A DNA stretch of 565 bases, from the sequence record EF517100.1. One strand, written 5' to 3'. Positions 1 to 565 of this stretch are shown one piece after another. Source of the stretch: a phage. Within the stretch, counting starts at the first letter, position 1. Every line of letters begins with the position of its first letter. The notes beneath the pieces are model-generated. The model was not told the origin of the DNA. It was given only the letters and a program-made list of their open reading frames with translations, and did no database searches. A program made the position numbers and the translations under genes.

Positions 1-441
1 GTTCCGGCTGCTGACCGTGTGTTCTACTGTGACCCAGATAGCTACTCTGCGATTCTGGCAGCACTGATGCCGAACGCAGCAAACTACGCTGCTCTGATTG
101 ACCCTGAGAAGGGTTCTATCCGCAACGTTATGGGCTTTGAGGTTGTAGAAGTTCCGCACCTCACCGCTGGTGGTGCTGGTACCGCTCGTGAGGGCACTAC
201 TGGTCAGAAGCACGTCTTCCCTGCCAATAAAGGTGAGGGTAATGTCAAGGTTGCTAAGGACAACGTTATCGGCCTGTTCATGCACCGCTCTGCGGTAGGT
301 ACTGTTAAACTGCGTGACTTGGCTTTGGAGCGCGCTCGCCGTGCTAATTTCCAAGCGGACCAGATTATCGCTAAGTACGCAATGGGCCACGGTGGTCTTC
401 GCCCAGAAGCTGCTGGTGCAGTGGTTTTCAAAGTGAAGTAA
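1..441 (+). CDS. 10A: Major capsid protein, T7 gene 10A type; C-terminal 146 codons plus TAA stop at 439-441; 5' partial, continues upstream of the window
   Basis: Seen in sequence: frame +1 is open from position 1 and translates to VPAADRVFYCDPDSYSAILAALMPNAANYAALIDPEKGSIRNVMGFEVVEVPHLTAGGAGTAREGTTGQKHVFPANKGEGNVKVAKDNVIGLFMHRSAVGTVKLRDLALERARRANFQADQIIAKYAMGHGGLRPEAAGAVVFKVK*. Codon usage is strongly biased as in a highly expressed gene (Arg only CGT/CGC, Leu mostly CTG, Gly mostly GGT/GGC). Established knowledge, recalled not searched: this matches the C-terminus of phage T7 gp10A almost residue for residue, the only difference I recall being the last residue (K here, E in T7). The ORF-track start at 19 is a GTG inside the gene, not the true start. 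Confidence 0.95.
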   Translation, partial: VPAADRVFYCDPDSYSAILAALMPNAANYAALIDPEKGSIRNVMGFEVVEVPHLTAGGAGTAREGTTGQKHVFPANKGEGNVKVAKDNVIGLFMHRSAVGTVKLRDLALERARRANFQADQIIAKYAMGHGGLRPEAAGAVVFKVK

Positions 442-565
442 TGCTGGGGGTGGCCTCAACGGTCGCTGCTAGTTCCGAAGAGGCGAGTGTTACTTCAACA
501 GAAGAAATCTTAACGCCAGCACAGAAAGCCACACGCACCCGTGCTGTTAACAAAGCTCGAAAGGA
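1..565 (+). CDS. 10B: Minor capsid protein, T7 gene 10B type, made by -1 frameshift: shares the 10A frame up to the slippery site (about 1-428), then continues in the -1 frame from 429 past the window end; partial at both ends
   Basis: Seen in sequence: the -1 frame (codons at 429, 432, ...) has no stop from 375 to 565 and reads, after the shift, QSEVMLGVASTVAASSEEASVTSTEEILTPAQKATRTRAVNKARK(E...). Established knowledge, recalled: the T7 10B extension begins ...VVFQSGVMLGVASTVAAS... and ends ...ANKARKEAELAAATAEQ, the tail also encoded upstream of the T7 terminator in pET vectors. The window sequence is clearly homologous with a few substitutions. The exact shift codon cannot be determined from sequence alone. 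Confidence 0.8.
423..429 (+). promoter_or_regulatory. Programmed -1 ribosomal frameshift slippery site GGTTTTC (G GUU UUC in the 10A frame)
   Basis: Seen in sequence: the heptamer lies 12 nt upstream of the 10A stop, in codon phase G|GUU|UUC, with an open -1 frame downstream. Established knowledge: the T7 gene 10 frameshift that yields 10B (roughly 10% of capsid protein) was mapped to this G GUU UUC motif near the end of 10A. Confidence 0.7.

What the first reader, a model, noticed from the sequence alone, without database searches (positions are those of the whole stretch)
423..429. Known T7-type programmed -1 frameshift site at the end of the capsid gene
GGTTTTC sits 12 nt before the 10A stop with the -1 frame open downstream. 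This is the classic gene 10A/10B recoding arrangement of T7-like phages, which sets the ratio of major to minor capsid protein. It is a genuine and interesting signal, but a well-characterised one, not a new system.
Basis: partly seen in the sequence, partly recalled or inferred. Interest (0 to 1): 0.5.

Follow-up and report, generated by a model that had tools for sequence, protein, structure and literature searches.

The report
Known T7 capsid gene frameshift site
The window is the end of the phage T7 capsid gene, and GGTTTTC at 423-429 is the long-known site where about one ribosome in ten slips back one base to make the longer minor capsid protein 10B, so the finding is correct but ordinary.

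Summary
GGTTTTC is at 423-429, read G GTT TTC in the capsid frame. The 10A stop TAA is at 439-441, so 9 nt lie between heptamer and stop, not 12. The -1 frame has 15 stops before position 375 and none from there to the window end.

The window is 97.9% identical to T7 itself (V01146 23564-24128), where 10B is annotated as a joined frameshift product. The literature read here describes the G_GU-type shift site, about 10% efficiency, 10A of 344 aa, 10B of 397 aa, and 10B as dispensable.

Of 80 related viral contigs, 72 keep an in-phase N GTT TTC with a -1 extension. Five carry C CCA AAG and one T TTA AAG instead. The two with the heptamer broken by synonymous changes have no 10B-type extension.

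Not visible in the window: the 10B stop and the distal stimulator in terminator Tphi.

Side observations:
- All 12 differences from T7 are G:C to A:T, and 8 of them lie downstream of the 10A stop. This suggests a chemically mutagenised T7 lineage with relaxed constraint on 10B.
- A predicted stem-loop at 434-497 shows suppressed synonymous variation. It has not been tested.

The parts
1..441 (+). 3' part of gene 10A (major capsid protein): last 146 codons plus stop TAA at 439-441
   Evidence: Pfam PF21703 Gp10A-like, E 2e-53, profile positions 139-279 of 279. 97.9% nt identity to T7 V01146, annotated gene 10A. One amino-acid difference from T7: E to K at the penultimate codon, position 436.
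423..429 (+). -1 shift site G GTT TTC (G GUU UUC)
   Evidence: In phase with 10A. Identical to T7. Present as N GTT TTC in all 17 GenBank relatives examined and in 72 of 80 IMG/VR relatives. Described for T7 in PMC5009743.
423..565 (+). -1 frame reading of the 10B-specific C-terminal extension (GFQSEVMLGV...NKARK), open to the window end. In T7 the 10B stop lies about 34 nt beyond the window.
   Evidence: Translation. phrog_12582 'head protein', E 1.8e-20. 41 of 47 residues identical to T7 10B. T7 10B ends at L001 1799, equivalent to window position 599.
434..497 (+). [quoted passage not shown] Outer stem about 435-444 with 487-496; inner hairpin 446-470. Predicted only.
   Evidence: MFE -25.8 kcal/mol, z -2.8 in the window and -2.3 in T7. 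It is the RNAalifold consensus of 12 Teseptimavirus sequences. 98.7% of cells are paired, but all changes are one-sided and 45 of 500 shuffles do as well.
450..482 (+). Block with almost no synonymous variation among T7-type relatives; overlaps the inner hairpin
   Evidence: 1 of 9 amino-acid-invariant codons shows synonymous variation here, against 34 of 52 in the last 102 codons of 10A, in 22 distinct sequences. Fisher p = 0.003.

Best explanation
The window is the 3' end of gene 10 of a phage T7 variant. Most ribosomes translating 10A read G GUU UUC AAA GUG AAG and stop at UAA (439-441), which gives the major capsid protein. A minority slip back one base while tRNA-Val and tRNA-Phe occupy GUU UUC and re-pair on GGU UUU. 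They then read CAA AGU GAA GUA AUG... in the -1 frame, bypass the 10A stop, and add a C-terminal tail of about 56 residues that replaces the last 3 residues of 10A. This gives the minor capsid protein 10B. The slip rate fixes the 10A:10B ratio in the virion. What is shown here: the identity with T7, the phase, the open -1 frame, and the conservation of site and extension across relatives. What is taken from the literature: the ribosomal tandem-slip mechanism, the roughly 10% efficiency, the dispensability of 10B, and the dependence on a distal 3' element in Tphi. What is inferred: that this mutated variant still frameshifts at a T7-like rate.
For: The window is 97.9% identical to T7 over 565 nt, and V01146 annotates 10A and 10B (as a join) here. 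The heptamer, its phase and the 9-nt distance to the stop are identical to T7. The -1 frame is closed 15 times upstream of 375 and open from there to the window end. The extension matches a phage 'head protein' family.

Comparative evidence:
- N GTT TTC is present in 17 of 17 GenBank Studiervirinae loci from four genera.
- It is present in 72 of 80 IMG/VR relatives, although GTT is only 46% of Val codons elsewhere in the gene.
- Six relatives instead carry canonical slippery heptamers at the same place (C CCA AAG in five, T TTA AAG in one), each with a long -1 extension.
- The only two relatives with the heptamer synonymously broken (GTA TTT, GTC TTC) have no 10B-type extension.
- The extension's C-terminal motif LTPAQKAARTRAANKA is conserved at protein level across genera.

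Literature: PMC5009743, PMC1635266, PMC5592923, PMC3276506, PMC8923235.
Against: Nothing contradicts it, but several things limit it. The end of 10B and the terminator Tphi, whose CCCC is reported to be needed for full frameshifting (PMC5009743), lie outside the window. The variant carries 9 G:C to A:T changes at or after position 436, one of them 7 nt 3' of the heptamer, and their effect on efficiency is unknown. Natural relatives AV103 and Yersinia phage R also have A at 436. 10B is dispensable, so a mutagenised lineage could have lost efficient frameshifting without cost. The primary papers (Condron et al. 1991) could not be read.
Confidence: 0.92

Rival explanations
1. The signal is a relic in this lineage. 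The heptamer is intact, but frameshifting is much reduced because 10B is dispensable and the mutagenised genome has damaged a stimulator, either the distal Tphi element outside the window or the proximal region 436-565.
For: All 12 differences from T7 are G:C to A:T, and 8 of them fall in 442-565 against 4 in 1-438 (Fisher p = 0.0014). Five of those 8 change the 10B amino-acid sequence, including residues conserved in all relatives (A to T, A to V). A separately sequenced lab isolate (AY264777, isolate P) has a C to T change inside the Tphi CCCC. 10B is non-essential (PMC5592923; PMC3276506).
Against: The heptamer and its phase are untouched. The -1 frame has acquired no stop despite 8 mutations. 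The predicted proximal stem-loop keeps the same energy as in T7, -25.8 kcal/mol. A at 436 occurs in natural relatives.
Confidence: 0.06
2. The downstream frame is a separate small gene that starts at ATG 441-443, which overlaps the 10A stop (TAATG). It would be translated by re-initiation and not by frameshifting, as many GenBank records annotate it.
For: Several relatives annotate a stand-alone CDS of about 52 codons starting at that ATG. The ATG is present in 20 of 22 distinct T7-type sequences.
Against: For T7 the product is a 397-aa fusion (PMC5592923; V01146 join). Two T7-type relatives have ACA instead of ATG. The Berlinvirus, Przondovirus and T3-type extensions have no start codon at that place. 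The T7 GGAG ends only 2 nt before the ATG and is GAAG in the window. Co-variation of slippery heptamer and extension is not expected for an independent gene.
Confidence: 0.01
3. The -1 product arises from RNA polymerase slippage on the T run (loss of one U in the mRNA) and not from ribosomal slippage.
For: The site contains a run of four T. A one-base deletion in the transcript would give the same protein sequence after Phe.
Against: By general knowledge, a run of four is far shorter than the runs that support programmed transcriptional slippage. The site is treated as ribosomal, with tandem tRNA re-pairing, in PMC5009743 and PMC8310308. The alternative heptamers in relatives (C CCA AAG, T TTA AAG) are classical ribosomal shift sites, noted as highly shift-prone in E. 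coli.
Confidence: 0.01

Closest known systems
Bacteriophage T7 gene 10A/10B programmed -1 ribosomal frameshift (Dunn & Studier 1983; Condron et al. 1991)
   Same: The same locus at 97.9% nt identity. Same heptamer G GUU UUC, same phase, same 9-nt distance to UAA, and the same -1 extension (41 of 47 residues).
   Different: There are 12 G:C to A:T substitutions relative to the reference, 9 of them at or after position 436. 10A changes E to K at its penultimate residue, and 10B has six residue changes in the part visible in the window. The end of 10B and Tphi are not in the window.
Bacteriophage T3 gene 10A/10B -1 frameshift
   Same: A -1 shift in the last few codons of the homologous capsid gene produces a minor capsid protein that is dispensable (PMC3276506; PMC5009743).
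   Different: The T3-type relatives seen here use C CCA AAG one codon further 3', and add an extension of about 86-96 aa, described as Ig-like for T3. The window has the short, non-Ig T7-type tail.
Canonical X XXY YYZ tandem-slippage sites with a proximal 3' structure (E. coli dnaX, IS elements, retroviral gag-pol)
   Same: A two-tRNA -1 slip on a heptamer. A stable structure is predicted 4-5 nt downstream.
   Different: The first tRNA re-pairs on G GU and not X XX (PMC5009743). The experimentally implicated stimulator is a distal element more than 200 nt 3', in the terminator. A role for the predicted proximal stem-loop is untested.

Membership tests
T7-type gene 10 -1 programmed ribosomal frameshift | Heptamer G GUU UUC in phase with the capsid reading frame | tested here: met
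   423-429, with codons GTT (424-426) and TTC (427-429) in the 10A frame.
T7-type gene 10 -1 programmed ribosomal frameshift | Site lies in the last few codons of a Gp10A-type major capsid gene | tested here: met
   PF21703 Gp10A-like, E 2e-53, matched to the end of the profile. Three codons lie between the site and the stop.
T7-type gene 10 -1 programmed ribosomal frameshift | -1 frame open past the 10A stop and encoding the 10B-specific tail | tested here: met
   Open from 375 to 565. phrog_12582, E 1.8e-20. 41 of 47 residues identical to T7 10B. The stop itself is outside the window.
T7-type gene 10 -1 programmed ribosomal frameshift | Nucleotide-level homology to T7 gene 10 | tested here: met
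   97.9% identity over 565 nt to V01146 23564-24128.
T7-type gene 10 -1 programmed ribosomal frameshift | Distal 3' stimulator: terminator Tphi with its CCCC, more than 200 nt downstream of the shift site | not testable with these tools
   In T7, Tphi lies at window-equivalent positions of about 640-690, beyond the 565-nt window. The exact variant was not found in any collection, so its flank could not be fetched.
T7-type gene 10 -1 programmed ribosomal frameshift | A fusion protein 10B is actually made, at about 5-10% of 10A | not testable with these tools
   Known for wild-type T7 (PMC1635266; PMC8923235). Needs a protein experiment for this variant.
Canonical X XXY YYZ slippery heptamer | First three bases identical, so that the P-site tRNA re-pairs fully in the -1 frame | tested here: not met
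   The site is G GU, not G GG or U UU. This is the documented relaxed case for T7 (PMC5009743). No canonical in-phase heptamer exists near the stop.

The most novel reading that the evidence does not exclude
T7-type phages may also use a proximal RNA element that has not been characterised, in addition to the published distal stimulator. This would be the stem-loop predicted at window 434-497, which starts 4-5 nt after the shift site and encloses the 10A stop. Its core, 450-482, shows almost no synonymous variation among 22 distinct relatives. The element could tune frameshifting or have some other RNA-level role.
Probability: 0.2. Interest if true: 0.35.

Novelty: already known. Interest (0 to 1): 0.1.

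Why it matters
This is a textbook recoding signal. It sets the ratio of two capsid proteins made from one gene, and it underlies T7 phage display, in which the 10B tail is replaced by foreign peptides. Finding it again in a T7 variant adds nothing new about the mechanism. There is modest value in the comparative picture. The shift position is conserved across Studiervirinae while the heptamer itself is exchanged (G GUU UUC, C CCA AAG, U UUA AAG). The heptamer is lost together with the extension. Many database records still annotate the 10B tail as a separate small gene. The predicted proximal stem-loop bears on the still unexplained long-range stimulation of T7 frameshifting, but that remains a lead and not a result.

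Tried and rejected
- **Source of the exact variant.** A 30-nt pattern covering five of the window-specific substitutions gave no match in IMG/VR, JGI metagenomes or GTDB genomes. No phage record exceeds 94.5% identity over 420-565. The origin stays unknown.
- **Primary papers.** Condron et al. 1991 (PMC209055, PMC328964), Sipley et al. 1991 (PMC5952207) and my guess at the PMC id for Springman et al. 2010 (PMC2815918, from memory) are not held. Mechanistic statements rest on later papers that cite them.
- **Rfam.** No family matched the window or the T7 locus at E up to 1.
- **Covariation test of the predicted stem-loop.** There were no two-sided compensatory changes in the MAFFT alignment, and 45 of 500 shuffles reached the observed pairing, so this is inconclusive. 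Single-sequence folds of WW2 and PGX1 rebuild the stem base with other bases across a 3-nt indel, but that depends on the alignment.
- **Pfam on the extensions.** Nothing significant for the T7-type tail, nor for the two long tails submitted, from Berlinvirus PcCB251 and Kayfunavirus 216Ecol046PP. The T3-type extensions seen later were not scanned, so the Ig-like nature of T3-type tails is taken from the literature only.
- **Whole-window fold of 423-565.** z = -1.1, not informative.
- **Minus-strand and other-frame ORFs in the window**. They lie inside the capsid coding region with no support, and were rejected as spurious.

Full report
**Observation**

The window contains one GGTTTTC, at 423-429 on the + strand. 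Shuffles of the window give 0.03 expected copies, and 6 of 200 shuffles have at least one.

The only long reading frame is frame 1, open from base 1 to a TAA at 439-441. In that frame the heptamer reads G GTT TTC, followed by AAA GTG AAG TAA. Nine bases separate the heptamer from the stop.

The -1 frame has 15 stop codons between positions 12 and 374 and none from 375 to the end of the window. The two frames therefore exchange openness exactly around the heptamer. Taken alone the open stretch is weak evidence, since 8% of shuffles of 423-563 are also open.

**Identity**

A megablast against 50,697 phage records gives full-length matches at 97.9-98.1% to many T7 genomes. In the reference record V01146 the matching stretch, 23564-24128, lies under 'gene 10A, major capsid protein' and 'gene 10B, minor capsid protein'. 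Gene 10B is annotated as a two-piece join ending at 24162, 34 nt beyond the equivalent of the window end. The terminator Tphi is at 24210 and gene 11 follows.

The 0-frame translation matches Pfam Gp10A-like (PF21703) at E 2e-53, up to the last profile position. The -1 tail matches a PHROG 'head protein' family at E 1.8e-20.

**What is known about this site**

- The review of Atkins et al. 2016 (PMC5009743) lists T7 gene 10 as the bacterial example of a heptamer in which X_XX is G_GU.
- The same review states that a long-range effect involving a CCCC in the transcription terminator, more than 200 nt 3' of the shift site, remains unexplained. It also notes that the T7 extension, unlike that of T3, is not Ig-like.
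- PMC1635266 gives about 10% frameshifting.
- PMC5592923 gives 344 aa for 10A and 397 aa for 10B, and calls 10B non-essential.
- PMC3276506 says the same for T3 and T7, and that 10B is dispensable.
- PMC8923235 describes the 10B C-terminus as an unstructured surface extension exploited by phage display.

The primary papers of Condron et al. 1991 are not held. My recollection of them is that the shift was mapped by protein sequencing and mutagenesis, and that the 3' non-coding region is required. That is memory, not a tool result.

**Comparative test**

Seventeen GenBank loci from Teseptimavirus, Berlinvirus, Przondovirus and Kayfunavirus all carry an in-phase N GTT TTC, 9 to 21 nt before the capsid stop. 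In 16 of them the -1 frame stays open for 40-91 codons beyond the 10A stop; in Yep-phi it stays open for only 16.

In 80 IMG/VR relatives with 77-99% amino-acid identity the picture is as follows:
- 72 have N GTT TTC (67 of them GGTTTTC) with a -1 extension. GTT makes up only 46% of Val codons elsewhere in the same genes.
- Five have C CCA AAG one codon downstream, with an extension of 86-96 aa.
- One has T TTA AAG with a T7-type extension.
- Two have the heptamer broken by synonymous changes (GTA TTT and GTC TTC), and these are the only ones without a 10B-type extension.

C_CCA_AAG is noted as highly shift-prone in E. coli (PMC5009743). So the site and the extension appear and disappear together, and the heptamer can be swapped for another slippery one. 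The phage sequences are related to one another, so the raw binomial p-value overstates the independence of these observations.

The C-terminal motif of the short extension, LTPAQKAARTRAANKA, is conserved at protein level across genera. The tail is therefore under selection in nature even though it is dispensable in the laboratory.

**Mechanism**

The best-supported reading is the published one. It is a tandem -1 slip of tRNA-Val and tRNA-Phe from GUU UUC to GGU UUU, followed by reading of CAA AGU GAA GUA AUG... past the 10A stop.

For T7 the tail adds 5.28 kDa. For the window it adds at least 4.33 kDa from the visible residues, and about 5.4 kDa if the 11 missing codons are like T7's.

**RNA context**

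RNAalifold on 12 Teseptimavirus sequences predicts a stem-loop that starts 5 nt after the heptamer. The stem pairs window 435-444 with 487-496, includes the UAA, and encloses a hairpin at 446-470.

Folding 430-500 alone gives -25.8 kcal/mol in both the window and T7, with z -2.8 and -2.3. The two window mutations inside it, at 436 and 474, do not change the predicted energy.

Pair counts show 98.7% of cells paired. All variation is one-sided (G-U to A-U or G-C), there are no double compensatory changes, and 45 of 500 shuffles do as well. That test is inconclusive.

Independently, codons 450-482 of the -1 frame show synonymous variation in 1 of 9 amino-acid-invariant codons. The last 102 codons of 10A show it in 34 of 52, in the same 22 distinct sequences (Fisher p = 0.003). 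No Rfam family matches.

I regard this as a lead to a proximal RNA element, not as a demonstrated stimulator. I could not check whether Condron et al. already tested it.

**The variant itself**

The window differs from T7 at 12 positions, and every one is G to A or C to T.
- Ten of the 12 lie at 5'-RG-3' on the G-bearing strand, against a background of 51% (p = 0.02).
- From memory, this is the known preference of N-methyl-N'-nitro-N-nitrosoguanidine.
- Seven of the 12 states are unique to the window among 12 relatives.
- At position 525 the T7 reference (G, Glu) is the odd one out. All relatives, and several T7 stocks, have A (Lys).
- Four changes lie in 1-438. Three are synonymous in 10A. 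The fourth, at 436, changes the penultimate residue of 10A (E to K) and also residue G to E of 10B.
- Eight lie in 442-565 (Fisher p = 0.0014 on G/C sites). Five of these are non-synonymous in the -1 frame, a proportion no different from the available opportunities.

This pattern fits a mutagenised T7 lineage in which 10A is under purifying selection and the 10B tail is close to neutral. A sequenced laboratory isolate, AY264777 ('isolate P'), shows the same spectrum: six G:C to A:T changes in 946 nt, one of them inside the Tphi CCCC. MNNG mutagenesis of T7 populations is mentioned in PMC8923235.

The exact sequence was not found in any collection. The origin is therefore unknown and could be an evolved line, an unpublished stock or an altered sequence.

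**Rivals**

- *Reduced activity in this lineage.* A weakened or relic signal cannot be excluded, because the distal stimulator is not visible and 10B is dispensable. The heptamer, the phase and the open frame are all intact.
- *Separate small gene.* Many records annotate a stand-alone gene starting at the ATG of TAATG. This is contradicted by the known 397-aa fusion protein, by relatives that lack that ATG, and by the co-variation of heptamer and extension.
- *Transcriptional slippage.* Slippage on a run of four T is unlikely, and the alternative heptamers in relatives are classical ribosomal shift sites.

**Verdict**

The feature is the already known T7 10A/10B frameshift, so interest is low. 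The side observations (mutation spectrum, heptamer turnover among relatives, and a conserved predicted stem-loop) are recorded for anyone who wants to follow them up.

Noticed in passing
window 309, 325, 348, 436, 474, 508, 525, 527, 531, 542, 547, 557: All 12 differences from reference T7 are G:C to A:T transitions, and 10 of the 12 lie at 5'-RG-3'. Eight fall in 442-565 (10B-only) against 4 in 1-438. This looks like alkylating-agent mutagenesis with relaxed constraint on the 10B tail. The exact variant is absent from every collection searched.
   Followed up: partly
window 525 (T7 V01146 24088): The T7 reference has G (Glu in 10B) here. The window, 11 other relatives and several T7 stocks (AY264777; probably also AY264778, LC730325 and PV223880/1, which are one mismatch closer to the window over 420-565) have A (Lys). 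The reference strain carries the derived state.
   Followed up: partly
window 434-497, core 450-482: Predicted stem-loop starting 4-5 nt after the shift site and enclosing the 10A stop. dG is -25.8 kcal/mol and z about -2.3 to -2.8. The core shows strongly reduced synonymous variation in relatives (1 of 9 against 34 of 52 codons). There is no double compensatory covariation, so its role is unproven.
   Followed up: partly
L039, L040, L042, L044, L046 (C CCA AAG); L034 (T TTA AAG); L058, L065 (heptamer broken): Among relatives the shift position is kept but the heptamer is exchanged for canonical slippery sequences. The only two relatives with GTA TTT or GTC TTC lack a 10B-type extension.
   Followed up: yes
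L013-L015 (Berlinvirus), just 3' of GGTTTTC: Berlinviruses have G GTT TTC AAA AAG, that is, a second potential shift site (C AAA AAG) abutting the first. Which one is used was not examined.
   Followed up: no
L003, L004, L006-L012 (GenBank annotations): Many deposited genomes annotate the 10B tail as a separate CDS of about 50 codons ('minor capsid protein', 'head protein', 'capsid and scaffold'). In most it starts at the ATG overlapping the 10A stop; in WX2 and CHRF_10027 it starts a few codons further 3'. A joined frameshift product would be correct, so this is an annotation artefact.
   Followed up: partly
L002 (AY264777 isolate P), window-equivalent position 609: This lab-evolved T7 isolate carries a C to T change in the CCCC of terminator Tphi. 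The literature implicates that sequence in long-range stimulation of gene 10 frameshifting.
   Followed up: no
window 445-449 (GGGGG): A G run 16 nt after the heptamer could in principle pair with the Tphi CCCC. It is not conserved in relatives (GGGAG, AAGGG, GGAAG, TGAAG), so a conserved long-range pairing through it is unlikely.
   Followed up: partly
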